From Sphaeroforma arctica JP610 (taxonomy: Eukaryota), in assembly GCF_001186125.1 (NCBI RefSeq), contig NW_014040107.1:9813-60043 (forward strand): 50,231 bases of DNA, read 5' to 3'. The notes beneath the pieces were generated by a model. The model was not told the DNA's origin and ran no database searches. It worked only from the letters and a program-made list of their open reading frames with translations. A program made the translations under genes and the position numbers. Below are positions 1-49,641 of this stretch, piece by piece. Every line of letters begins with the position of its first letter. Positions within the stretch are counted from its first letter, which is position 1.

Positions 1-4
1 TAGA

Positions 5-241
5 TCTCAGAGCAAGATAATCCACTGAGAAAGGATAGGATCAGAGTTGTTAGAATTTAGGACAACATGGTTTTGATTCCTCTTAGCCAGCCAACTAGAT
101 GTGCCCGTCTATGCCTTAAATGGGATGGAGAGCTAGGTACCAAGTGATGGGGTTTAGGTGCAGATGTATACTGCACCAGCTTGGTGTTTTGATTTCAACT
201 CTGATCCTGTCCTTTTCTCAGTGCAATATCTTGCTCTGAGA
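5..241. repeat. Inverted repeat B: arms 5-49 and 196-241 enclosing repeat A
   Basis: tctcagagcaagataatccactgagaaaggataggatcagagttg (5-49) vs the reverse complement of 196-241: 42 matches in 46 columns (3 substitutions, 1 indel). Confidence 0.92.
118..195. repeat. Inverted repeat A, partner at 7820-7897
   Basis: The reverse complement of 7820-7897 matches 118-195 at 75/78 positions by manual alignment, no indels. Confidence 0.95.
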
Positions 242-782
242 CTATTATCGAATTATACCACAGGTTTATACCAACAACCATTTCATGCCTGAGATCCTCT
301 CTCATGGTACTCCCATTAATTAGAGATTCCCAAAGTGTCATTTTTAGGTGTCAGATTTGTATTATTCCGTTATGCAGTACAATTCTAATTTCAGTGAAAA
401 ACCAATCTATATTTGGAAAATCACCTATTTGTCCACAGTAGGAGTCCCATACTCTACTGAGTACTATCGCATGTTCAGAATCTTAAATATCTCAATTCTT
501 GTTCATGTCCAATTCGTTAAACGTATTACAGTACTGTGTATAAACGTTATTACGTTAATACTTTTATAATATACGTTAACTGTGCAACTACTATTAGGAA
601 AAACCCTAAAACCCCCTCAGCTTGAATATTTCAATGTTGGCTTATATGTGGTAGTAGCACATAGACTCAAAATGCTCACATGAATTGTACAAGCGAAAAG
701 AAAAGAAACGGGTTTCAATCATATAACGGCCTCAATGCTTATGTTATATTCTCTTAGACAAAGTATACTTAGACGTTATAAG

Positions 783-1145
783 TTACTCGGTTACTCTATT
801 CCGTTTAGGCTTTGGTCCTTGTGGTCCCCGATGGTGGGTGCGACGTTTCTTAATGCCTTTTGGAGGTACGTACATTCCATGCTGTTTAAAGCTGGGAATG
901 TATGAAGTCTGTGGATAGATCTTAACCACTTCAGGTCGCTTATTCGATGGTATGATTGCTTCTGCATCAGCATTATTTTTGTGTAAGCGTTTGCGAAACT
1001 TCTTATTAAAAGCCTTTAGTACATCCGGATCATCAAATGCTGATGGTGGAAGATTATATTGTGCTCCATCGGCGAACTCCGTAGTGAAATATGTCATATC
1101 CTCATGTTTGTACTTGCCTAGAATTTTCTTAAACTCGTAAGACAT
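783..1145 (-). pseudogene. Divergent chromodomain-like C-terminus of integrase followed by a basic tail
   Basis: YEFKKILG...TYFTTEFADG...LPPSAFDDPDVLKAF resembles the chromo pattern YEVEKIL...YLVKW.G...EP..NL...L..F and lies where chromoviruses carry it. Aromatic-cage tryptophans are not conserved. Confidence 0.6.
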
Positions 1146-1263
1146 AAGAGGTGTAGTAGCTTTACGTGTGTGACGAAGGATTATCTCTGTCGTAGGGATA
1201 ATATTATTTATTTCAAAAATGGCAAGTATGTATGATACAATGTATGAACATATGGTATGGCTC

Positions 1264-2352
1264 TCATAGTCGCTGTAGTGGTTCAGGAAAGAGGATTCGA
1301 TGTGACCCGTTATTTAAGGCACTAGAGCCGTCAACGTTGCTAACTTCATACGTTCCGCTCTTCGTATCGGCCACAGAGATCATAAATGGTCCAATATATT
1401 TAGCCGTAAGCACAGTTGTATCGGAGTTGCGAGCCATAATGTTAGCTTTATCACCTACCTCAAACTCGACTATTTTCTTGGTATCATTCCATCGCTTTTG
1501 TCTCTTCTTGAAAGCAATGTCCTTCATCTCCCTTAAGCAAGGATAGACCCCATCTCTGGCCCGACGCATCTTCTCTAACCATGGTAACACATGATCATCT
1601 TGAGACTCCTTGTTGAAGGGGATCTGTAATTCACTATAACGGCCCGGGAAATAGTGAGCGGGTGTTGTACCAGTGACTGAATCAGGGGATTCGCTCATCT
1701 GTGTCTGTACCCAATTGATTGAGTACGGCCACATGTCAGCATCATCAAGTAGTGCTGCTCGCATGAACTCCTTCATCTTTCTGTGTCGTACCTCGTTCGC
1801 ACATTGTGTCTGAGGCTTGTAAGGTACACCCATCTTATGGTATGATCCCGCAACGAGTAACAGTGTCGTCATGACATCTCCTGTAAACTCACTACCGTTG
1901 TCGGAACATACAATAGCTGGCCAGCCGAAATCTGCGAAGCACTTATATATGCACTCAGCCACAGTTTGAGTTTATTTATCTTTCAGCGGATACAATACAT
2001 TATATTTTGATGCGACATCAAACACGTGACAGACGTATTTATCCTTCGTGTGTTCAGATGTGGGTAGCTCAACCAAATCAATGATAACCCGGCGCCACGG
2101 CTCGTCTTCTGATACGCTGCGTAAAGGTGCGTATCCGTAGCGCTTGATCCGGTGAACTTCGCAGTTGTTACATTCGTGATACACCTGAGATATATATTGC
2201 TTGAGGTTCGGGTGTGCGATTCCGTACCTCTTGCAATCTTTCTCAGTTCTAACCTTACCCATGTGCTTAAGAGCATGATTTTGTCTTAACCACTTCAGAA
2301 TCGCCTCCTGTGATTTACTTGTTCCATCGAAATCAGGAGGTGAGGATTCCAC
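1264..2352 (-). pseudogene. DDE (rve) integrase with HHCC zinc-binding N-terminus and GPF module
   Basis: NHALKHMG...CNNC, PWRRVIIDLVEL, VFDVASKY, FGWPAIVCSDNGSEF, PYKPQTQCANE, KYIGPF. ORFs 1972-2352 and 1264-1962 share a frame, separated by one TAA. Confidence 0.95.
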
Positions 2353-2702
2353 CGCGTCATCACCTGGACTCGAAACTCGTTTCGTCCAATCTCGTCTAAA
2401 GCTTCTACATCGTGAATTCGACTAATGTTTGATTTATCCATTAGTTGAGTCACATGATCATATACCTCGGGAAAGTCATTCATCAATTGCTTAAGCAATC
2501 GAGTTTCTGCTTGGTATGCAGTTTCCCTGTCAGACCGTATTTTGTTGTAGAAGGCTTTCGCTACTGTTGCGCTCCTCTTTGATTCCTTTGAATTTGGCTG
2601 TATCCCTTGAGAATTAGGGCTCAAGACTGGAATCTTGGATTCCTCAACCTTCTGTTTGAAAGTCTCGGATGGTGTCCACTTGGTTGTTCCAACTGGACCT
2701 AT

Positions 2703-3110
2703 TCAACATATAATAGTATGTCGCCAAGGCATCTTTTGGACTGCACGGGTACCCTGGTAGAGAAAAGTATCTACCTTTCTATCCACATAGATCGGCTTAC
2801 ATTGTATCATTGAGATCAACTGTGGTAGCCATTTATCTGAGTGTCTTAAGGGACAACACAACGCGATGGTAGCATCTTGAATATGTCCATAATTTAGCAA
2901 CTGTGGTATTAATAGCCATGGAGGATTTGCCCAGGCATTCTCGTTAGACAAGTCAATCTGGAATCCGTCTCCTTTCGGATGTTCCAGTGTCCGGTGCCTC
3001 GGCAGTTGCGCATTATGATGAACGGCAAACATATCTATGGTATGTGGTCCATGTATGTTGTCTGTGATCTTAAACCATCTAGGATTGACCATCTAATCCG
3101 TAGCTAGTAG
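2703..3110 (-). pseudogene. DNA N6-adenine methyltransferase domain (phage Dam / DIRS-MT-like) embedded in pol
   Basis: TD*MVNPRWF...GPHTIDMFAVHHNAQLPR...DGFQIDLSNENAWANPPWLLIPQLL...LCCP...W. The IDxFA AdoMet-binding region precedes an intact NPPW motif at 2916-2927. In frame with the RNase H end (DMLSR) and with the downstream linker. Confidence 0.88.
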
Positions 3111-3139
3111 CTCCCTAACCACCTTGTTAAAGTCTGGTA

Positions 3140-3500
3140 CGAAGCGAGACAACATGTCGGGTAAGTGATTGTGTATACCCGGTATGTGTGTTATGCCGAA
3201 AGAAAATTTGTGATCGCGTCATGCCATTGACTGACTAACTGTGATCTAGGTTTCATGTCCCTTAGGTGTTGCAATGACTTCTGATCACATAGCACGTTAA
3301 AGTGTGTGCCATATAGATAGTTCTTAAAATGAGTGAGTGCAGTAACAATAGCTAAAAGCTGTTACACGGTTGGGTAATTGATCTGAGACGAATTCATAGC
3401 TCTGCTAAAGAACTGTACATATCTCGGTTTCCCTTCAATCATTTGATACAGAACGCCGCCGAATGCCATGCGGATACGTCTGTTGCTACCATGAATGAAA
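3140..3500 (-). pseudogene. Ty3/Gypsy-type RNase H domain
   Basis: Manual translation across frameshifts gives ATDVS / FGGVLYQ...VQFFSRAMNSSQINYPTV*QLLAIVTALTHFKNYLYGTHFNVLCDQKSL... / FGITHIPGIHNHLPDMLSR, the typical Gypsy RH pattern. Confidence 0.9.
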
Positions 3501-4400
3501 TACCATCATTTGGTGGCTGGACTACTGGTTCCTGTTGAACCACTGTTTTGAGCTGCTTAAATGCGTCATCACAGTCTTTGGTCCACAGTGTGCCTAGTTT
3601 GCTTTTATGACATCTCAAATGTCCAAAGGGCTTTAAATAACTTGCCAGATGTGGTACTACGTCAGACAAAAAGTTGCCGAATCCGCACATGCTGTTGACA
3701 TCCTTACCCGTGGTAGGAGTTCTCCAGTCTAGCAAGTGTTCGACCTTCCCGGGATCGATCATGATTCCATCCCCGGATACTCGGTAACCCAACAGCTGAA
3801 TCTCGTTAACACCGAAGTGACATTTCTTACTGTTGACCTTAAAGTTGTGCTTGTTGAGTCTGTCTAGAACCTCTCGCACAACCTTGTCGTGCTCCTCTTT
3901 GGTTTTGGTGAATACCACAATGTCATCAATGTATACTTGTACACTGTCCATGTCCCTAAACAAGTCTTGCATAATTTGTTGAAAGAACGCAGGTAACATG
4001 TGGAACCCAAAGGGAGCGAATATTGCTGACCCTCCCAGGCAAAGGTGAAATACTTCCGGTGTGGTTTGTAGATCTTCATCTGGTGGTAGCCCTGCTACAG
4101 GTTGATAGTGGAAAATATCTTAGCTCCCTCCATGCGCCTGAGTAGTTCGTTTATCCTTGGTAAGTGAAAATTGTGTGTCGGTATCAAAGCGTTAATTGGG
4201 CTCATATCCAAACACACCCGAACTTTCTTCCGTGTCCCGTCAGAGTTAAATTGGTCGATGGCTAAAAATGCTAGGTTGACGGGAGTCAGCTCATAATTGA
4301 CTGCGATCACTCCGTCATCTAGCCATGCTTTAATCTGTTCTCGTACGACCTGCTCATGACGCCATGCAACATAGTTACGTGTAGGACACTTCAGCTTCGA
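3500..4400 (-). pseudogene. LTR-type (Ty3/Gypsy) reverse transcriptase domain
   Basis: KKVRVCLDMSPINA, FHLPRINELL, AKIFSTINL*QGYHQ, YFTFAWEGQQY, PAFFQQIM, VYIDDIVVF, KKCHFG...LLGYRVS. In-frame TAG at 4095-4097 and a frameshift near 4010. Confidence 0.95.
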
Positions 4401-4599
4401 GAAATCTACTCTCGTCAGGTCTAGACTAACGTATCCGTTATTAGATTTGAACTTAGCCCAGCCAGTGATCTGAATGTTGTCGTTCTCGAGAATCAAGTCC
4501 TTGAGTTTCTTTGTAAAGTGAGGGATCATCTCCTTCACAGTCTTCGAAGGTTTATATACCGGTTTCAACAAGTTGTCGTCCGACTGCTCCTTCTGTGGT

Positions 4600-4961
4600 T
4601 CAATGTTAGTAGGTAAGCCTGTAATTGTGATACATAATGAGAGTAAATCACCCATACCTACTATGAGATCATAGTCTGGTGAAGTGTTACATATGACAGC
4701 CTTAGTAACTGTAGTACGTTGGTCTGCCAATGTAAACATAAGATCGATTGCCATTTCTCTGCAAGTGATCTCTCTTTCATCAGCCAATTTCAACATAGTT
4801 GGCTCTGTCTTACGAGTTACGTCTGCCATTTTACAGAATCTAGAGGATATACATGAAATTTGCGAACCCGGATCTAACAACGCTTTTATTTCATGTCCGT
4901 TAACTCGTATGTCAAGGATTACACTCTCGTCTTGAGGTGCGTCCTTTTGTCTTAGTGACAA
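4600..4961 (-). pseudogene. Retropepsin-type aspartic protease domain of pol
   Basis: ILDIRVNGHEIKALLDPGSQISCIS ... YDLIVGMGDL matches the D(T/S/P)G and ILG-type motifs of retrotransposon proteases. Confidence 0.9.
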
Positions 4962-4976
4962 GACCCGGTATGTTTG

Positions 4977-7451
4977 TCACTTGACTTCAACTTTTGGTTT
5001 CACCTTGCATGTATGCTTGTGGTAACCTCCAGTCCCGGTACAGTCGGCACACTTCTCGATAAAGTGTTTACACTTTTCTGCGTGCCTTCCATTCCATCTG
5101 CCATTCGGCTCATGTTGGGTCATTCGCCAATTGCAATCAGTCTCACTGCAGTTCTTGACCTCCCTATGCCTGGGCTTAGGGTTGGCTGCCGGCGGTCCAT
5201 TTCTGTTGGTCTGGTTACCCTTAAAGATGACATTGATCTTGTTGCCCTCAGAACCATTTGTATTTTTGTTCTTATTGCCACCCTTGTCACCCTCTTTGTG
5301 TACCTTCTGACCTCCATTAGTGGACTGAGAGTCTCGACCATTGCCTGATCCTCCGGTAAGATTGCCGCTGACCTTCGTCTGAGCATTAGTGACTTTCACC
5401 ACGGAACTAGGGCGTTGGTAAACGTCTGATCCGCTCTTGAGTAAAATTCAGCCCAGGTTAAGTCCGCTAGCTTCATTATGCCGTAGGTAGGTCCCTCGAT
5501 GGAGATCTCTCGTACCTTGTCCGGGTAAGATTGATGCATATCGGCGTACAGAATCTCTTGATCTCTCCTTTGTAGGTTTGACCAAAAGATTGCCTGCACC
5601 CATAGTACACACATGGATAGCACATCCGGTGACATCTCCTGAGTCTGGGCCCGTGACATGTGTGTGTCCAACTCTAATAAGTAATGGGACACCGGCGTTC
5701 ATTCTTCCGGCGGTATCATGATCGATACAAGCAATTCCGGCCGAGGGTCCGTCGAAAATAAGTGGATGATCATCTCACTCTGCTCTTTCCACGTTTTCAG
5801 CCTAGTGATCACTTGTTTCGCCTTCTCTAACTTGTTGTACTTGTAAGAGGACGGCTTAAAGCTCTGCTGTGCTGCTTCGAACCATAGGTTCTTCCGTAGA
5901 TTGGCTGTAAGCATAATCTGTCTAAACTTTTCACAGACCTAGATAACAACGCCAGACTGCTAATATCAATTGGATCCTTCCGGTCCTTTGATCAGATCTG
6001 TATGTCGTTGGTAGTTTACCTATGTCCTCTACAAATTTCTTGCCTTCCACAGCCTTCTCGGTCTGAATCACTCTTAGTTCTGAATCAGACCCTAGCGGCA
6101 TCAATCCTACCTAGATCCATCGCCTCGAGTGAAGCTGCCTCAGCCTTGTTCATTTGAACGGTGAATTCAGCAATTTTCAGATCACTACTAGAGTGATCTG
6201 ATCCCTTCTTCTCTAACTCCATCTGACCATGCAGTCAGTTATCTGTCTCATCCTTTGATTCATCGATCTGTTCAATGTTTATGAACGCTTCGGATGGGAC
6301 AACATCTTTTCTCGTCGTGGGGATAGCCGCTGGGGGCGAACTATCTCCCGATGACGACAAAGATTTTCTAGCTTCCACCTGATCAGGTTTAGGCTTTTCG
6401 GTCGGGTTGTCCCTCGGAAATACCTCTGGGGCACTTTGTGGAGAAAACAACTGCGTGCTTGCTTGCCTTCGTCAGTTTTCATTAATATTAACCAATTATA
6501 ATATTTAGAATCCCTAAACAAATCATACCTAACCTTTTTTACCGCTGCATTCATCACATACCTCGGTGAGATGGTACCATCTGGTTTGGTCTTCAATACG
6601 TCCGGAAAGTACGTTTCATACGTATTTCGAAACACCCATGCCCTGTTGGCCCGCTGTCGGATCAACTTTCGTTGACCTTCCTTCTGAATATCAATCAGCG
6701 CCTGGTATGGATTGCCCAGATCAAAGTTCTGTCGCCAAGTCGGTCGGAGTTGTGTTTTGGATATACGCAGGAATTGTGAATCAATCCTGCTGTCCGAATC
6801 GTCGTCCTGACGGTGAAATGTCTGGTCCACATCATCCGGACCAATATCCACGAAATGCAGTTGTTCTTCCGTTACGTTTATTTGGGGATGATACAACAGA
6901 GTTTGTGCTGTTGGCTCATCCTCCGAGCCATCCTCCCCTGATTCATTCTGATTTTGATCCTTCGCTGCGGCTTGCTTTTTCTTCCGCTGCTTAGTAGGTC
7001 GCAAATCATGTACCATTGGTTGGTAGTCCTTCAGGAAAGCTCACCTATCCCTTGCTATCATGTGATCTGATTCCAGTGCATGTCGCACTTCCTCTGAAGT
7101 TGAATCTTCCGAGGATTGCATTTTCTTGGCTTTTCCCTTTCGAGATTTCGCCTTCTTCGCTGGTGGATTCTGTGGTTCCGTAGTCACATTACCTCCGGAT
7201 GCATCTACACCCGAGTCAACCAACTTCTTACGTTTCCGTTTAGTCAGAGTTGGTGCCGGTTGTACCGGTGTGATCTCAGTTGCTTCAGATTCCACTGATG
7301 ATGCCGGGGGTATTTTCTGCTTTTCATCGCCTACAGTGAACCAATTCACTTTTGCAGCCTTGGCTACATTCGCTGCCTTGGCTACATTCGCTGCCTTGGC
7401 TACATTCGCTGCCTTGGCTACATTCGCTGCCTTATTGTTTCCTTTCGTCAT
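4977..7451 (-). pseudogene. Long gag-like ORF1 of the retroelement (about 2.5 kb), broken by stops and frameshifts, with a Cys/His-rich C-terminus
   Basis: ORFs 7041-7451 and 6279-7016 are in one frame, separated by a single TGA. Further fragments (6235-6450, 5699-5914, 5396-5692, 4977-5402) tile the interval and end in CSETDC...H...HAEKC...CADCTGTGGYHKHTC just upstream of the protease. No canonical capsid motif recognised. Confidence 0.6.
7357..7433. repeat. Perfect 18-bp tandem repeat (4 copies plus 5 bp) encoding AANVAK at the N-terminus of the gag-like ORF
   Basis: gccttggctacattcgct x4, read directly from the sequence. Confidence 0.97.
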
Positions 7452-7819
7452 AGTATCTATAGCGTATTATAAACTCAAAAATATGTAAAAGTCGGTCTCC
7501 TCTAGGCTGACTATACGATACCAAGGCGTTTACGTTAATAAGACAATACGCTAAAACGTTAAAATGCAAAATGTTAAATAAGTTTAGCTTCAGCCCTTCG
7601 TACTGAGCAAAAGATTAATGGATTTTAGACTGAGACTATTGTCTATATGCTCCGCTCTAATCACTCACTACTTCGGTCTAGATTTATATATGTTTTAGTT
7701 ACTAAGACTAGATATCATTTCATTGGACGCATATTTTACATTTCACGCCTCGAAACAATTATCTACTCAAACTATCCAATAAAATATCTCTAAGTCCAAC
7801 TTAAGAAAATCAAAAAATA

Positions 7820-7897
7820 AAATCAAAACACCAAGCTGATGCAGTATACATTTGCACCTAAACCACATCACTTGGTACCTAGCTCTCCATCCCATTT
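7820..7897. repeat. Inverted repeat A (partner of 118-195), running up to the assembly gap
   Basis: aaatcaaaacaccaagctgatgcagtatacatttgcacctaaaccacatcacttggtacctagctctccatcccattt is the reverse complement of 118-195 with 3 substitutions. Confidence 0.95.
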
Positions 7898-8290
7898 CAN
7901 NNNNNNNNNNNNNNNNNNNTTGGTGTAGACTCGAAGCAGCGATCGAAGCTGTCGTGTCTGGCTATGTCTCGGTTTGAGGTTGGCGGTTTACCCATAACCA
8001 GTTGGTAGTAGTATTGGCGCCGGGCCATTGCCGCGATCTCCTTGTTGGACCAACGTTTTGTTGAGTTCTTCCTGATGTCGTCACAGCGTTGGCGGAGGGC
8101 TACATGGTCGGGTGTACGCCCGCCCGTGGTTTTGTGTACAGTTTTCAGGTGAGCATAGATACTGTACTTGAAGCGCAATGATGATTTATCGTGGGCCCAG
8201 GCGGATTGCGTCAGAGGGGTAAGTGGATTTGTGCTGGCCATTGAGTTTGAGTTGTATTCCCAGGCAACCTCCGAGGTAGTCCGCGAATGG

Positions 8291-10837
8291 TCACGCGGGG
8301 TGCAGGCCGCAAAAGTGAAGTAAGTTTGTTTGATGTTTGGGAAACCGAGGGTATATAGTGCTCGTGATGATGGCTGCTGCTTGGATTCGTGCTGAGTTAA
8401 AGCGCTCGAATAGGGGGTCTAACGCATCGTTCCATATAGGTGGAGCCCAGACAATAATGTTCAGCCCATATGTAGCCGTGGATAGGATGAATGTTTTGAA
8501 CATCACCAGTCGGTTGCGGGGGTGTCGCCAGCTGAAGCCATGGAAGCCATAAGTGCGGAAAGAGGCGATACCCAGTGACAATGCTGAAACCAGGGATTCC
8601 ATATGTCTAGCGAGGTTGATTCCTGGTACTCCGTGAGAGAGTGGGAACCCCAGGTATTTGGAGTGTTTCGGTTCGGCATGTGTGGGCACCAGTTTCAGGG
8701 GGAGGTAACGTGTGTTCCAAGGTGCGTCTGCAAGCGTCGGCGTGATAAGCTCACCATTTATACGGAGGGTTGGCGCCGCGTGTCGCAAGTCGGTAGATCG
8801 TACTCGGGGTTTAATGACACCCTGTTCGAGGCCAGATTTGCGTCCCCACGCATCAATGTCATCTAAGAAGGGCTGGAGCGAAACCGATCGAGGGGCTTGG
8901 ATCCGTGTGTCATCGACAAATAAATAAGAGCGGAGGAGTTTGGGCCGAAATTGTGCTAGCGTGACAGCTAAGGAATCCATGTAGATAATAAAGAGCTGGG
9001 GGCCAACGATTGAGCCTTGTAGGATGCTATTCGTTCTATGGAATAGAGACGAGAGCGTGCCGCGGTATGTCACTCGGGTAGGGACCCTCCCAAACAGCGC
9101 GCGGAGGCAGTTGATCCAGTTTTCAGGCATTCCAGCGTGACGCAGAAGTACCCATAGGCATGGGAGAGCGACCTTGTCGTATGCCTTGGTTATGTCCAGA
9201 CAGACGTCGTTCCACTCCTCTTCTGACTGTGTCTCAGATTCCATGGCGGCAAGTGCTTGGGTATGACAGGAGTACCGTGATTTGAAGCCAGCTTGGGTAG
9301 CATGGGTAGCAGAGCCGGGGTGGCTCGTAATCAGATTAAGAAAGCACTTTTCAAAGATGCGTCTGACTATTTGCGTAAGCGTGATGGGGCGGAAGTCGGC
9401 GGGGGAGGCGATATCTGCATCGGCTTTCTTTAGGTGCGCTGTCAGGAGGCTGTAGTTCAGGGCTGCGGAGAAGGTACCCGCCTTCAGTAGCTCAGTGAAT
9501 GCTTCGGCAAGGAGTCTAATCAGTGGGCTATGGCGTTCGGTAGAGCGCTCCACTGCGGCCTTCAGGAGGAGGATGTGGATCCCGTCGGGGCCAGGTCCCT
9601 TATTGGGATAGCGTAGTATTGCCTCCATTACATCGTCGGGGCGTATGGTGGAAGTGACATCAGGAGAGGGTCCGGTATCCGGTGGAACCACGTACGGGTT
9701 TGTAGAGTTGAATAGGGCCTCAAAGTAGCCAGCAAGGGTAGCGCCTGTGTCATCGGTACCCGGTATGCAGGGTTGGCGTGGAGACCGTCGTTGGTACGCA
9801 ATATCTTTGAACATTTGAGCATTGCTTTGGGCGGTCAGACGTGGGCAGAAAGAGTGGTTTGGCAGCCGCTGAAACCAAGGTCTGTTTAAGTCAAAATAGA
9901 ACCCTCCAAAGATTTGTGGGTTAGTGGCATAGCGCCAGATGCGGTAGAGGATTCATAGCAGCCCTTCCGCTGGTTCATGTAAAGTGAGATACGACCGTAG
10001 TAGGTTCTGATGCGCCCGGATTTCGGCTTGGAATAGTCGCGCGCGGGATTTGTTGCGTAGGTGATACAGTCGATGGCGATATCGGTTATATCCATGGGAG
10101 GGGAGGCGTTGGTCCGGAGGCGGCGGCATTGCTGGCATTTGTTGGGGCCGATAGATTTGATTCGTGGGAAGTATCTGGAGATCGAGTCTAAAGGTGTGGT
10201 CACCACAGATACTGTAGTCCGTCAGCTTATAAGTTTGGAGGGAGGCGGGGGTGGTAGGTCGATGATACGCATGTTCAGTACCAGTTGAGCCGCCAGCATA
10301 GAGGTAGTCCAAGTGCCACGTATTACGCAGAGTAGTCTCAATCGCTTTCATACATAGTCCGTGATTTGTAGATGCGTGGCCATACTTCCGGGCTTTGAAG
10401 TTGAAATCTCCCCACACGACATCTGGTTGGAAACCGCCAATCTCGGGGGGATTTATATATCGCCTGACATCTTCTTCAGTAAGCGATTTGAGTGGAAAGT
10501 AGAACACGGCCATATGAACGCCAAAGCACACAAATAACACCGCGTACGGTGAAGAGTGTACAAGTTGAAAATTCGATAGGTGGTGTTTGGAAAAGATACC
10601 AATACCACAGTGTGAAGGGTGTAAGATATTATGCCGTGTAGTGTGATGTAGTATATGATAGCGTGTGTTCGAGCGTATATGATTCAGAAATGTGGTGTTA
10701 TGCCAGGTTTCAACCACACACATAACATCAACCTGACTTAAAATCGATATAACGTTCAAACACTTACCTGTATGTGCTGCGTTGTCCATGTTGAGTCCTT
10801 GTGGGTTGAAGAGCGTCATCCTCATTGGTCCTAACAT
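8291..10837 (-). pseudogene. LINE ORF2: AP endonuclease plus reverse transcriptase, one in-frame TGA at 9953-9955
   Basis: APE: TLFNPQGLN, CVVETW, WGDFNF, GDH. RT: KGPGPDGI, FRPITL, QAGFK, LDITKAYDKV, QGSIVGPQLF, YLFVDD, KYLG. I translated 9815-9952 in this frame and found no further stop. ORF 7897-8241 may be a frameshifted C-terminus. Confidence 0.92.
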
Positions 10838-11709
10838 TGTTTATCATCGGTCAATACTACTGGGCTCTCCTCTTTGACGATGTCAGCCATTTCTATATCA
10901 TTGCCTGTCGTCGAAGAGTCCGTCGTGGAAATTTGGTTGAGATACCGATTTAGACGGAAGATACCAAAGAAAGTGGTGGCGATTGAGGGCTGGTTGGGCA
11001 TGTCAGTATTTTTCAAATACTGATTGGGATGGGGGCTTGCCGTAGGGAAAATTGCTCGGAAGAAGAGCCATACCGGAGTTATGTCATCCATTTCATGAAG
11101 AGTTTTGTCCGGCATCGGGCGGCCCACCACTTTCGTCAAAAGCTGTTCGGGTACTGGCGGCTGCGATTGGGACTTTGCAGGCGGAGCAGGCGGGCTTGTG
11201 GAGCCAAATCGGAAAGTGTCGGATGTGTTTTCATCTATAGGTGCACGGGTTTGGGATTTAAGGTCCCGGAGTTCGGATTCAAGGTTGGTTGTTTTTGCAC
11301 TGAGGTTAGTGAGCATTTGGTGTATGGCTGATTTCCTTTGGTCATCAGCCAAAGGCTCCTTGGAGATGGGCCCATCATTGTTCGGGGTTGTTAGAGCCGG
11401 TCCCAAAATTTGATTGAGATTGGCCTGTAGAGTACTGACCCGGGCAGAGAGGTTTGTGATAGATTTTTGTATGTCCAATTTCCATTGGTCATTGGGTAAG
11501 GAGTCGTTGGGGGCGAACGTCTCAATTGGGGATTCGGCCTGGCCCGATATTTTTTCGCGGACGTGGGACTGTGGCGGGGGTTTAAGTATCGCCTTTATTA
11601 GACCGAATCTTACACTGAGAGGATAATATATAGGCAATGTCTCAGCCTCACAATCCTTCAGAGTATTACTGTTTTCACGAGGCATACCTAACTTTACTAA
11701 AAGTCTCAT
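10831..11709 (-). CDS. LINE ORF1 protein (292 aa) with two coiled-coil-like segments and a Pro/Ser-rich linker
   Basis: Open ORF directly upstream of ORF2, with heptad-like ITNLSARVSTLQANL and LTNLSAKTTNLESELRDL. No RRM or zinc knuckle recognised. Confidence 0.7.
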   Translation of the reverse strand: MRLLVKLGMPRENSNTLKDCEAETLPIYYPLSVRFGLIKAILKPPPQSHVREKISGQAESPIETFAPNDSLPNDQWKLDIQKSITNLSARVSTLQANLNQILGPALTTPNNDGPISKEPLADDQRKSAIHQMLTNLSAKTTNLESELRDLKSQTRAPIDENTSDTFRFGSTSPPAPPAKSQSQPPVPEQLLTKVVGRPMPDKTLHEMDDITPVWLFFRAIFPTASPHPNQYLKNTDMPNQPSIATTFFGIFRLNRYLNQISTTDSSTTGNDIEMADIVKEESPVVLTDDKQC

Positions 11710-11764
11710 TTTGTTTATTTACTTTGATATTTTCACGATACTTAGAATTTACCTACTTTCCTAT

Positions 11765-47794: not shown

Positions 47795-48060
<266 letters not shown>

Positions 48061-48370
48061 AAGTATGCCCTTTTAGCGGTGGATACCCTTACTCAAATGG
48101 TGTTTGTTCGGGTCTTTCCGCCTAGTGTTGCTGCTGGGGATGCTGTGCGCTTCTTGGAGGAGCAAGTGTTGGCACTGGGAGTGCCGCAGAGGATTACGAT
48201 GGACGCTGATTCTGTGTTCAACACTAATGATATGGTTAACTTTTGTGAGGCTCGACAGATTGTGCCGCGTTATGTGTCGATCGATCGTCACCAAGGCAAT
48301 GGGAGAGCGGAGGTTCTCATCCGTACGGTGAAGGACTGGCTCAAACGTGAGGTGGCGGCTGCTGATGCGG
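48061..48370 (+). mobile_element. Isolated rve integrase catalytic-core fragment
   Basis: [12 protein letters not shown]...GVPQRITMDADSVF...HQGNGRAEVLIRTVKDWL; open frame, flanked by dinucleotide microsatellite on both sides. Confidence 0.85.
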
Positions 48371-49641
48371 GTGTATGTATATATTTATAAATATATATGT
48401 AATGCTAGTATTTTCTTGCCACGCATATGATACTTTGGAAAGTGTGTGTGTGTTCAACACTGCTTGATTCGGCTTGTCACTGGTTTGGTTGGCTACTTAC
48501 GGAACTTGTCACACGTCTGCTGCTACACAAAAAACATAAACGCTCCACAGCGGAGTAGACCGACCTGTTGTGATTAATAATTGTTATGCTGCAAGTTTCT
48601 AGGACTAGTAGATGACGCTGACTATTGTTTCTTGAATGGGCAAGACGCAAACAAACATGTCTATAGTTTTATTTGAAAATAGGATATCTATATTAGTCAA
48701 AGTAATATTTGATGGGGTACCAATGCTATGTGCAACGTAGCGGGAGAGTTTCGCTCGTATACTCGCGGACACATCCGGATATTGCCAGGCTTGCCCTGCG
48801 TTTCAAACAAACTCACAGAGGCACCACTTGTGGGCTTGAGATTTTTTCTCGTTATACACACAAGAGGTTGACGACTTATTAAATGAAAGCAGAAATGACT
48901 GAATTCTCTCTCACTAGAGAGAGAGAGGTTGATTGGGGCCCTCTGACCTGTGTTGAAGAAAACACTCAATCAGGAGAATTGGCCTTCCATTTATGTAGAT
49001 ATATGCATCCACTTCCGAGCATACTTTCGCCTGCGTTCTATATCACGCTAGCCATCCAAGCTTACCCGCTTGTACTAATCAGACATCTCAAAGAGCGATG
49101 GGGTGCCTCTATGCACATTGAGATCCAAACAAACGCGCACACTATATAGCGATACCACTATTTTTCCCTTCGCAATAACTAAAAAGTGTACTGTACCGCG
49201 AGGCCATGGGCCGTGAGCCGAGTGGGGTTTTACTTATTTTTGTATTTTTTTTCCGAAAAACAAAAAGCGGTATGTATTAAAACATTGTTCCACCACCAAT
49301 ATAAAAGTATCTATCAAGCGATTGGCTACGAATCAGGAATGACCTATTATTATACATTGGATGTTACAGATTTATCTCGAATCGTTATTGGTCGACCAAG
49401 CAACAATCTATCCGATCAGCGATCGTCAATCTGACAATCTGCAGTGTGTTTGTAGTATTTAAGTTTCCTATTTTCTGTTGCAGTGCTGCTAAAGCCTGCT
49501 GCTATGTATTGTATATTGTATATAAGATCAAAGGAATGATCTGACCAATTAGTCAGTATACCGATAGACACTTCTCGAGTAGTCTCCACGGTCTCTTAAA
49601 TATAAGAGTGATACAGTAACTACAGAGCTACAGCATCGGGC

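What the first reader, a model, noticed from the sequence alone, without database searches (positions are those of the whole stretch)
5..241. No LTRs: a composite 124-nt segment is complementary to both ends of the element
Seen: 118-195 is the reverse complement of 7820-7897 (75/78), and the directly abutting 196-241 is the reverse complement of 5-49 (42/46). On the sense (minus) strand the layout is A - gag-pol - B - rc(A) - spacer - rc(B). I found no direct repeat between 241-780 and 7500-7900. Known: DIRS elements have inverted terminal repeats plus an internal complementary region (ICR) pairing with both ends; Gypsy elements have direct LTRs. The polarity differs from a DIRS ICR: this segment joins the inner borders of A and B (7820 and 49), so it equals an uninterrupted A+B sequence with 50-7819 removed. 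Inference: (i) a non-LTR end/priming structure for a DDE-integrase retroelement, (ii) the element carries an inverted copy of its own target site, or (iii) a separate foldback/TIR repeat surrounding a truncated Gypsy. Both outer ends are cut off by the window edge and a gap.
Basis: partly seen in the sequence, partly recalled or inferred. Interest (0 to 1): 0.78.

Follow-up and report, generated by a model that had tools for sequence, protein, structure and literature searches.

The report
Gypsy retrotransposon with DIRS-like inverted ends
A repeated Gypsy-type jumping gene, likely from a single-celled relative of animals, has an inverted repeat near its two ends and an internal complementary copy of its right tip instead of visible direct terminal repeats, so it likely rebuilds its ends by folding back on itself, as DIRS elements are thought to, while being predicted to insert with a retrovirus-type integrase.

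Summary
Both inverted matches are real: 76/80 for 116-195 vs 7820-7899, running into the gap, and 42/46 for 196-241 vs 5-49.

The 80-nt match is the visible part of an inverted terminal repeat. The 46-nt segment is complementary to the element's right tip, in DIRS right-ICR polarity.

Contigs of public runs show a multi-copy family. Its right end lies at about 3-4, at the outer border of the internal copy. The inverted repeat continues into the gap, and both end regions are over-represented alike. No direct LTR is seen.

The coding part is Ty3/Gypsy: protease, RT, RNase H, Dam-like methylase, D-D35-E integrase, chromo-like tail, no tyrosine recombinase. Its named relatives are ichthyosporean. 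That protein architecture is in a May 2026 preprint, which classified by domains and does not describe ends.

Best reading (0.55): an LTR-less Gypsy that restores its ends by DIRS-like fold-back and inserts with a DDE integrase. It is not a DIRS member: no recombinase, no left ICR. The left end was never read whole, so an LTR hidden in the gap (0.2) or transposon-like mobilisation (0.17) remain open.

The parts
4..49 (-). Right tip of the element (outermost 46-47 nt); its last 26 nt can form a small hairpin with a 6-bp outer stem
   Evidence: Multi-copy contig 4-122 starts at 4; 6 of 32 listed pieces begin or diverge at 3-6; hairpin (z -1.2, not significant)
50..195 (-). Right inverted repeat, inner part; 116-195 pairs with 7820-7899; the partner of 50-115 is inferred to lie in the gap
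   Evidence: left-type contigs cover 68-190 and 79-195; best-supported loose ends at 73-84 and behind 195, none listed at 116
196..242 (-). Internal complementary copy of the right tip (right-ICR-like), abutting the inverted repeat
   Evidence: 42/46 in this copy; 46 of 47 with the letters other copies carry at 36, after 29, 226 and 242; 1-260 folds at z -7.6, 0 of 200 shuffles
295..303 (-). 9-nt purine tract, possible plus-strand primer (PPT-like), about 52 nt upstream of the internal copy
   Evidence: function inferred
975..1139 (-). Chromodomain-like C-terminal segment of pol (approximate limits)
   Evidence: No Pfam hit for 912-1196; a profile of 9 family C-termini hits the Pfam-Chromo stretches of P0061, P0017, P0054 at iE 4e-7, 2e-6, 1e-3
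1196..1292 (.). 97-bp insertion absent from other copies
   Evidence: Joint 1195-1293 in 4 of 4 runs
1293..2376 (-). DDE integrase (HHCC-like zinc motif, D-58-D-35-E, GPF motif), one in-frame stop
   Evidence: relative P0004 matches foamy-virus integrase at E 7e-12
2706..3092 (-). Dam-like N6-adenine methyltransferase domain, NPPW motif present
   Evidence: Pfam Dam E 0.003; 66% identical to P0004; alignment
3203..4300 (-). Reverse transcriptase and RNase H, Ty3/Gypsy type, broken by frameshifts and a stop (approximate limits)
4652..4913 (-). Aspartic protease
   Evidence: Pfam Asp_protease_2 E 6.5e-7
4977..6480 (-). gag-like region, broken (limits approximate; Cys/His-rich end)
   Evidence: Translation; no Pfam hit; identity inferred from position
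6480..7451 (-). Upstream ORF of unknown function, with an 18-bp tandem repeat and one in-frame stop; its 3' limit is approximate
   Evidence: only homologues found are two Sphaeroforma arctica hypothetical proteins, 60% and 55%; no usable Atlas hit
7820..7899 (-). Visible part of the left inverted repeat
7900..7919 (.). Assembly gap hiding the left end; a LINE fragment follows

Best explanation
This is a decayed copy of a multi-copy Ty3/Gypsy-type retrotransposon with a Dam-like domain, bounded by an inverted repeat and carrying an internal complementary copy of its right tip, and it likely has no direct LTRs, likely rebuilds its ends by DIRS-like fold-back, and is predicted to insert as linear DNA through its DDE integrase. 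SHOWN: domain order, D-D35-E triad, no recombinase, inverted repeat of at least 80 bp, a 46-47-nt internal complement whose outer border falls at the right end, multi-copy status. INFERRED from contig ends and depth: the inverted repeat runs on into the gap for about 165-190 bp and ends in the same or a similar terminal ~30 bp. INFERRED mechanism, untested: (1) the RNA starts and ends inside the two repeats; (2) the minus-strand cDNA folds into a panhandle and copies the right repeat to rebuild the left, as in the DIRS-1 model; (3) plus-strand DNA primed at the purine tract 303-295 reads through the internal copy and right repeat, and the incomplete 3' ends are finished on that internal copy; (4) because both ends are alike, one internal template is enough and no circle junction is needed; integrase joins the two 3' ends and the host fills the 5' gaps.
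For: Repeats and absence of direct repeats. Same geometry as the right ICR of a recombinase-bearing DIRS control, L019, and as described in PMC3266345 and PMC7192593 (passages). Right end at 3-6 matches the outer border of the internal copy at 241-243; three of this copy's four departures from complementarity are not shared by the listed variants of other copies. Loose ends before 74 in 4 of 4 runs (1, 6, 5, 8 contigs; median 22-46 letters) read like window 17-32 plus 13 other letters; one contig joins 5-32 to 119 through such letters; loose ends behind 195 in 3 of 4 runs read as variants of the left interior. So several diverged copies carry the inverted repeat on the left. Depth steps up from bin 7129-7392 to 7393-7656 in 4 of 4 runs (31.6 to 103.8; 3473 to 27930; 8042 to 60878; 61843 to 139562), to about the level of 265-528: both ends are over-represented alike, which LTRs and solo LTRs would not give. 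One unbroken contig spans 244-401 at flat depth in X16, and none of the 6 joints shows a tip-to-leader hairpin. RT falls with integrase-bearing Gypsy rows, apart from DIRS-type rows, 100/100; Ty3 Gag-Pol E 3e-71; no recombinase hit; an intact RT-RH-Dam-IN relative exists.
Against: The left end was never read as one piece, and no target duplication or terminal dinucleotide could be fixed. Left-type contigs come in two forms (departing at 74-84, or matching the right end at least to 68), so the left tip is unresolved. No listed contig bridges 195|196 in the window's orientation with 31 letters on each side, and X16 has a hole at 196-213 (32 of 1026 pieces shown). One mismatch (22/224) is not listed as variable, which argues against the whole 47 nt being recopied each cycle. 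No left ICR (191 of 200 shuffles score as high). Contig depth is a poor copy number by the tool's own warning; 244-401 at about twice the interior in X16 would also fit an LTR. A purine tract followed by a 6-bp inverted match to the tip (294-289 vs 10-5) looks like an LTR start. No DNA of any related family was found. No RNA or cDNA evidence was obtained.
Confidence: 0.55

Rival explanations
1. An ordinary direct-LTR Gypsy whose 5' LTR is collapsed into the gap. The LTR would start after the purine tract (294) or further in and end at 4-5; the inverted repeat would be a long U5/leader hairpin, perhaps for self-priming.
For: The gap sits where a 5' LTR would be. Purine tract 303-295 is followed by a hexamer inverted to the tip. 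X16 depth of 244-401 (63.6) is about twice the interior (24.5-36.4). The tip resembles an initiator-tRNA primer site with two mismatches (recalled, not tested). The preprint calls the lineage conventional Ty3/Gypsy-like. Self-priming LTR elements exist (PMC4600332 passages).
Against: No fork or depth step at 294 in X16, 6 of 32 listed pieces bridge it, and none of the 24 shown loose ends (of 191) lies there. The leader 7393-7820 is as over-represented as the 3' region in 4 of 4 runs. Four X16 contigs at single-copy depth carry 90-329 letters before 71-84 that lie nowhere on 1-480, and X16 shows no joints; these are diverged copies and could be right ends. A hairpin of 120-190 bp at the 5' end of the RNA is far longer than known primer stems (own knowledge). 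An LTR start between 480 and 780 was not tested at fine scale.
Confidence: 0.2
2. The ends act as transposon ends. An inverted-LTR by-product of faulty reverse transcription, or a TIR/MITE-like unit enclosing a Gypsy interior, spreads as DNA through the integrase (Ginger-like), and the internal copy is a relic of LTR structure.
For: Ends outnumber interiors about 2-3 fold in X16, and an internal deletion 1218-7484 occurs in 3 of 4 runs. Ginger1 transposons have 40-270 bp TIRs and Gypsy-like integrases (PMC2836005 abstract). Earlier unchecked notes describe inverted-LTR by-products in other genomes.
Against: The whole gag-pol with both untranslated ends is present and multi-copy, with contigs in 30 of 30 bins in 4 of 4 runs. 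An intact RT-bearing relative exists. Cut-and-paste does not need a 46/47 internal complement ending at the tip. Several diverged copies share the repeat-to-interior junction, so it is not a one-off.
Confidence: 0.17
3. The 3' end of the RNA folds back on the internal copy and self-primes minus-strand synthesis (hairpin priming), flipping the 146-nt loop in the product.
For: Strong fold of the 3' end (z -6.3, 0 of 100 shuffles). Two opposite-strand joints (51/195 and 37/209), each in 2 of 4 runs, read as the loop flipped between the internal copy and the tip.
Against: The flipped form stands at about single-copy depth, whereas obligate hairpin transfer predicts roughly equal flip and flop forms. 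Recombination between the inverted copies, or a join of the internal copy to a left end, explains the joints too.
Confidence: 0.05
4. Misassembly or a chance chimera of unrelated repeats.
For: The element lies between the window start and a gap; no listed contig spans 195|196 in the window's orientation.
Against: Independent runs reproduce 4-122, 214-401 and the repeat-to-left-interior junction; the flipped contigs place the internal copy's inner border at 195/196; bin 193-208 is covered in 3 of 4 runs.
Confidence: 0.03

Closest known systems
Ichthyosporean DAM-LTR lineage (bioRxiv 10.64898/2026.05.21.726589; whole main text read, supplements closed)
   Same: Ty3/Gypsy pol with a Dam domain and DDE integrase; nearest named relatives are Abeoforma whisleri proteins and Sphaeroforma arctica proteins.
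   Different: The preprint classified by domain content; its main text has 0 hits for 'inverted', 'ICR', 'terminal repeat' or 'target site'. This copy shows inverted ends and no direct LTR. The preprint says the lineage lacks chromodomains; a divergent chromo-like tail is seen here.
DIRS1-like tyrosine-recombinase retrotransposons (PMC3266345, PMC7192593, PMC3783388; passages)
   Same: Inverted terminal repeats, an internal region complementary to the right terminus, a Dam-like domain after RNase H, a small terminal hairpin.
   Different: No tyrosine recombinase; has protease and DDE integrase; RT outside the DIRS-type group; no left ICR or circle junction.
Ginger1 / Ginger2-Tdd DNA transposons (PMC2836005; abstract)
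   Same: Gypsy-like integrase between inverted terminal repeats of similar length.
   Different: The abstract describes them as cut-and-paste DNA transposons; this element has protease, RT, RNase H and an internal complementary copy.
Tf1/Tj1 self-priming LTR retrotransposons (PMC4600332; passages)
   Same: Gypsy elements that replace tRNA priming by pairing within their own RNA.
   Different: They keep direct LTRs and pair the RNA 5' end with a short primer site; here the pairings are 47 and at least 80 bp and no LTR is seen.

Membership tests
DIRS1-like | Tyrosine recombinase ORF | tested here: not met
   tblastn and a profile from 7 recombinase stretches find nothing credible in six frames of 1-7899 (best domain iE 0.13, opposite strand)
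DIRS1-like | No protease, no DDE integrase | tested here: not met
   Both are present
DIRS1-like | RT of the DIRS type | tested here: not met
   Window RT groups with 13 integrase-bearing rows against 12 DIRS-type rows, 100/100; groups labelled by domains, no named DIRS reference
DIRS1-like | Dam-like methyltransferase after RNase H | tested here: met
DIRS1-like | Inverted terminal repeats | tested here: met
   76/80 in the window; continues to at least 68-84 in left-type contigs; outer left limit not read
DIRS1-like | Right ICR complementary to the right terminus | tested here: met
   42/46 here, 46/47 with the variants of other copies; border coincides with the end at 3-6
DIRS1-like | Left ICR abutting the right ICR, with circle junction | tested here: not met
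   244-330 has no direct similarity to 1-117 (191 of 200 shuffles as high), whereas control L019 shows one at 84%; the left tip itself was not available
DIRS1-like | NTT termini and no target duplication | not testable with these tools
   No genome held; flanks not displayed
Ty3/Gypsy (Metaviridae) | Order protease-RT-RNase H-integrase; Ty3-like RT | tested here: met
Ty3/Gypsy (Metaviridae) | Integrase with D-D35-E triad | tested here: met
   Spacing 58 and 35 in the window and in P0004
Ty3/Gypsy (Metaviridae) | Direct long terminal repeats | tested here: inconclusive
   None in the window; contig ends and depth argue against; the gap is unread
Ty3/Gypsy (Metaviridae) | TG...CA ends and 4-6 bp target duplication | tested here: inconclusive
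   Right end at 3-6 shows no CA in this copy; in about half of the depth a CA lies just outside the internal copy (243-244); flanks not seen
Ty3/Gypsy (Metaviridae) | Primer-binding site and polypurine tract next to the LTRs | tested here: inconclusive
   No TGG right after the left repeat; 9-nt purine tract at 303-295; host tRNAs not available
Ichthyosporean DAM-LTR | Dam domain in a Gypsy pol with integrase, ichthyosporean host | tested here: met
   host inferred from named homologues only
Ichthyosporean DAM-LTR | Placement in the preprint's DAM clade | not tested
   Preprint sequences are in closed supplements; 3 of the 4 best Dam hits after P0004 are Abeoforma proteins
Ichthyosporean DAM-LTR | Lacks a chromodomain | tested here: inconclusive
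   No Pfam Chromo but a chromo-like tail by profile
Ginger DNA transposons | Integrase-only cut-and-paste element with TIRs, no RT | tested here: not met
   RT, RNase H and protease are present
Tf1-type self-priming LTR elements | Primer site complementary to the RNA 5' end within a direct LTR | not testable with these tools
   No transcript start and no LTR shown

The most novel reading that the evidence does not exclude
A structural class of retrotransposon not found in the papers searched: Gypsy protease-RT-RNase H-integrase with no LTRs, replicating through DIRS-like inverted ends and a single internal complementary region. The lineage that took its Dam domain from DIRS would then also use DIRS-type end logic, adapted to make a linear substrate for a DDE integrase, and the ichthyosporean 'DAM-LTRs' would not be LTR elements.
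Probability: 0.45. Interest if true: 0.88.

Novelty: new variant of a known kind. Interest (0 to 1): 0.72.

Why it matters
In the usual scheme, direct LTRs go with a DDE integrase, and inverted ends with an ICR go with a tyrosine recombinase. An element with DIRS-like ends and a Gypsy integrase would show that end restoration and integration chemistry can be uncoupled.

It would give a natural test of what the ICR does apart from circle formation. It would also mean that a newly described methylase-carrying lineage was named after repeats it may not have. LTR-finding programs would miss such families.

Tried and rejected
No whole genome is held, so copies, flanks and target duplications could not be read.

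Searches for DNA of this or related families:
- The repeat pattern found 0 matches in metagenome, viral and prokaryote contigs.
- The family alignment gave 0 confirmed loci in viral and prokaryote contigs and 34 loci in metagenomes.
- None of those 34 had a hit to five integrase queries; 5 had a recombinase hit. They served only as DIRS controls.

Other searches that led nowhere:
- No RNA holder was listed.
- The word-index search with the Dam piece alone found nothing.
- The Atlas gave no hit for the upstream ORF and no host clue from a host gene.
- No tRNA gene lies in the window.
- only re-found its own pattern.
- Earlier-finding look-ups by place and sequence were empty.

Readings rejected:
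- Target-site copy: 4-122 is a multi-copy element end.
- TG at 7899 as the left terminus: left-type contigs go on past it and no loose end is listed at 116.
- Troyka: it has LTRs and CG ends (PMC12440569, part 1 of 5 and passages).
- The terminal hairpin alone is not significant (z -1.2).
- A weak inverted match of 244-330 to 97-115 (7 of 200 shuffles) was not pursued.

Full report
OBSERVATION. Both matches are present and far beyond chance. 118-195 pairs with 7820-7897 at 75/78, and the pairing continues to the last base before the gap: 76 of 80 for 116-195. 196-241 pairs with 5-49 at 42/46. BLAST gives E 1.6e-30 and 5.7e-11, and 0 of 200 shuffles reach either score. There is no direct repeat between 1-800 and 7450-7899 (73 of 200 shuffles as high), and no other copy of these ends in the window.

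CODING CONTENT. The minus strand carries an ORF of unknown function from 7451, a gag-like region, and a broken pol: protease, RT, RNase H, a Dam-like domain at 3092-2706 with NPPW, an integrase with D-58-D-35-E, and a chromo-like tail. An intact relative, P0004 (1376 aa; RT, RNase H, Dam, rve), is 49-71% identical over five blocks and 34% in the last. It matches Ty3 Gag-Pol at E 3e-71 and foamy-virus integrase at 7e-12. In a 26-row RT tree the window groups with 13 integrase-bearing rows against 12 DIRS-type rows at 100/100; rows were labelled by domain content, not by named references. No tyrosine recombinase was found. Named relatives are Abeoforma whisleri proteins (3 of 10 clusters looked up) and two Sphaeroforma arctica proteins, so the host is probably an ichthyosporean (inference). 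This architecture is the 'Ichthyosporean DAM-LTR lineage' of bioRxiv 10.64898/2026.05.21.726589 (whole main text read; supplements closed). That work classified elements by domains, and its main text has no hit for inverted, ICR, terminal repeat or target site.

RE-PARSING THE ENDS. DIRS1 elements read lITR-ORFs-lICR-rICR-rITR-rE, with the right ICR complementary to the right terminus (PMC3266345, PMC7192593; passages). A recombinase-bearing metagenome locus, L019, shows this: 2030-2102 pairs with its end at 73 of 73, and 1986-2033 repeats 2279-2326 at 84%. Read the same way, 118-195 is part of the right inverted repeat and 196-242 is a right-ICR-like copy in DIRS polarity. The real difference is that no left-ICR-type repeat is found at 244-330 (191 of 200 shuffles as high).

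OTHER COPIES: THE RIGHT END. Twenty of 24 listed runs hold part of the stretch, in 7 studies; six runs were laid. Contigs cover 30 of 30 bins in 4 of 4 runs with several hundred variant places. On 1-480 (shown: 24 of 191 loose ends, 32 of 1026 pieces, 6 joints with no cut notice), six listed pieces begin or diverge at 3-6, including one of depth 82 where single-copy pieces have about 3-4.5. None listed reaches 1-2; 5-15 contigs per run go over an end of the stretch, which end is not given. Variants at 36, after 29, 226 and 242 make the internal copy complementary to 4-49 at 46 of 47; 243 pairs with 3 in about half of the depth; 22/224 stays mismatched.

OTHER COPIES: THE LEFT END. No loose end is listed at 116, so the left repeat continues into the gap. 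Loose ends stand before 74 in 4 of 4 runs and before 84 in 2 of 4, reading like window 17-32 with two changes plus 13 other letters; one X5 contig joins 5-32 to 119 through such letters. Loose ends behind 195 in 3 of 4 runs read as variants of the left interior. One left-type contig instead matches the right end from 68 on, so the left tip may be either a perfect inverted copy or a divergent one. One X16 contig runs unbroken over 244-401 at depth 63.6. In one search, depth rises from bin 7129-7392 to 7393-7656 in 4 of 4 runs, to about the level of 265-528, and an internal deletion 1218-7484 appears in 3 of 4 runs. Both end regions are therefore over-represented alike, as for internally deleted derivatives. 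The tool warns that depth is no copy number, so this is supporting evidence only.

RESULTS AGAINST. The left end was never read whole. No listed contig bridges 195|196 in the window's orientation with 31 letters on each side, and X16 has a hole at 196-213; bin 193-208 is covered in the other three runs, and two single-copy-depth contigs with the loop flipped place the border there. The X16 depth of 244-401 is about twice the interior, which an LTR would also give. A purine tract at 303-295 is followed by a hexamer inverted to the tip. The tip resembles an initiator-tRNA primer site (recalled, untested). An LTR start between 480 and 780 was not examined at fine scale. No DNA of another family was found, so all of this rests on one family.

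MECHANISM (inferred). In the DIRS-1 model the left repeat is rebuilt from the right one and the tips from the ICR, which is essential for retrotransposition (PMC7192593, passages). I propose the same fold-back logic with a linear end product. The RNA lacks both tips. The minus strand copies the right repeat onto the left by panhandle pairing. Plus-strand DNA primed at the purine tract exposes the internal copy, on which the 3' ends are completed. Two like ends suit a DDE integrase and make a left ICR and circle junction unnecessary. The fixed mismatch at 22/224 suggests that only the outer ~18 nt are templated. Confidence 0.55. Rivals: LTR hidden in the gap 0.2; transposon-like movement of an inverted-end unit 0.17; obligate hairpin priming 0.05; misassembly 0.03.

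COMPARISON AND NOVELTY. At its ends it works like DIRS, but it is not a DIRS member: recombinase, RT type and left ICR were tested and not met. It is Gypsy by its enzymes, with direct LTRs not shown. It is not Ginger, since it has RT (PMC2836005, abstract), and not Troyka (PMC12440569, part 1 of 5 and passages). PMC3783388 (passages) states that recombinase retroelements lack protease and DDE integrase. PMC4600332 (passages) describes self-priming LTR elements. PMC12859917 (passages) added nothing. Six full-text searches listed no paper whose title or abstract start describes a Gypsy-type integrase element with inverted ends and an ICR; most listed papers were seen as listings only, and subscription journals and Repbase were not searched. 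Earlier AI notes of this scan mention inverted-LTR by-products and Dam-bearing Gypsy elements elsewhere; they were used as leads only.

VERDICT. A real feature. The protein architecture is known since 2026; the end structure is apparently undescribed. New variant of a known kind, interest 0.72; if confirmed across families, a new structural class (probability 0.45, interest 0.88).

Noticed in passing
window 50-195: Two contigs, each in 2 of 4 runs at about single-copy depth, read as the loop flipped between the internal copy and the tip (joints 51/195 and 37/209), or as the internal copy joined to a left end.
   Followed up: partly
window 975-1139: Divergent chromodomain-like tail shared by the Dam-Gypsy relatives, although the preprint says the ichthyosporean lineage lacks chromodomains.
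   Followed up: partly
window 278-297: The sequence just after the purine tract shares the terminal hexamer and about 10 letters with the divergent left-type end seen in contigs; possibly a vestige of an ancestral LTR start. Noticed after the fact, not tested.
   Followed up: no
window 1196-1292: 97-bp insertion absent from other copies in 4 of 4 runs; many contigs continue behind 1292 with other sequence, so it is probably a piece of another high-copy repeat.
   Followed up: partly
window 6480-7451: ORF upstream of gag with no Pfam or Atlas hit; its 18-bp tandem repeat (7357-7433) varies in copy number among copies (joint 7356-7411 in 3 of 4 runs).
   Followed up: partly
window 7920-11718: LINE-type element on the minus strand (endonuclease and RT), cut by the same gap.
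   Followed up: no
window 47953-48390: A second, unrelated integrase-core fragment next to a TA microsatellite.
   Followed up: no
window 601-617; joints 4840-5027 and 6266-6388: Telomere-like TTTAGGG letters occur in the 3' untranslated region and between the sides of two deletion joints in run X1.
   Followed up: no
L019 1986-2366; L013 9-50 and 4476-4517: Metagenome DIRS elements with recognisable ICR geometry; L019 also has a terminal hairpin.
   Followed up: partly
protein P0046: A 2144-aa protein combining endonuclease, Dam, RT, RNase H and integrase zinc domains in one frame.
   Followed up: no
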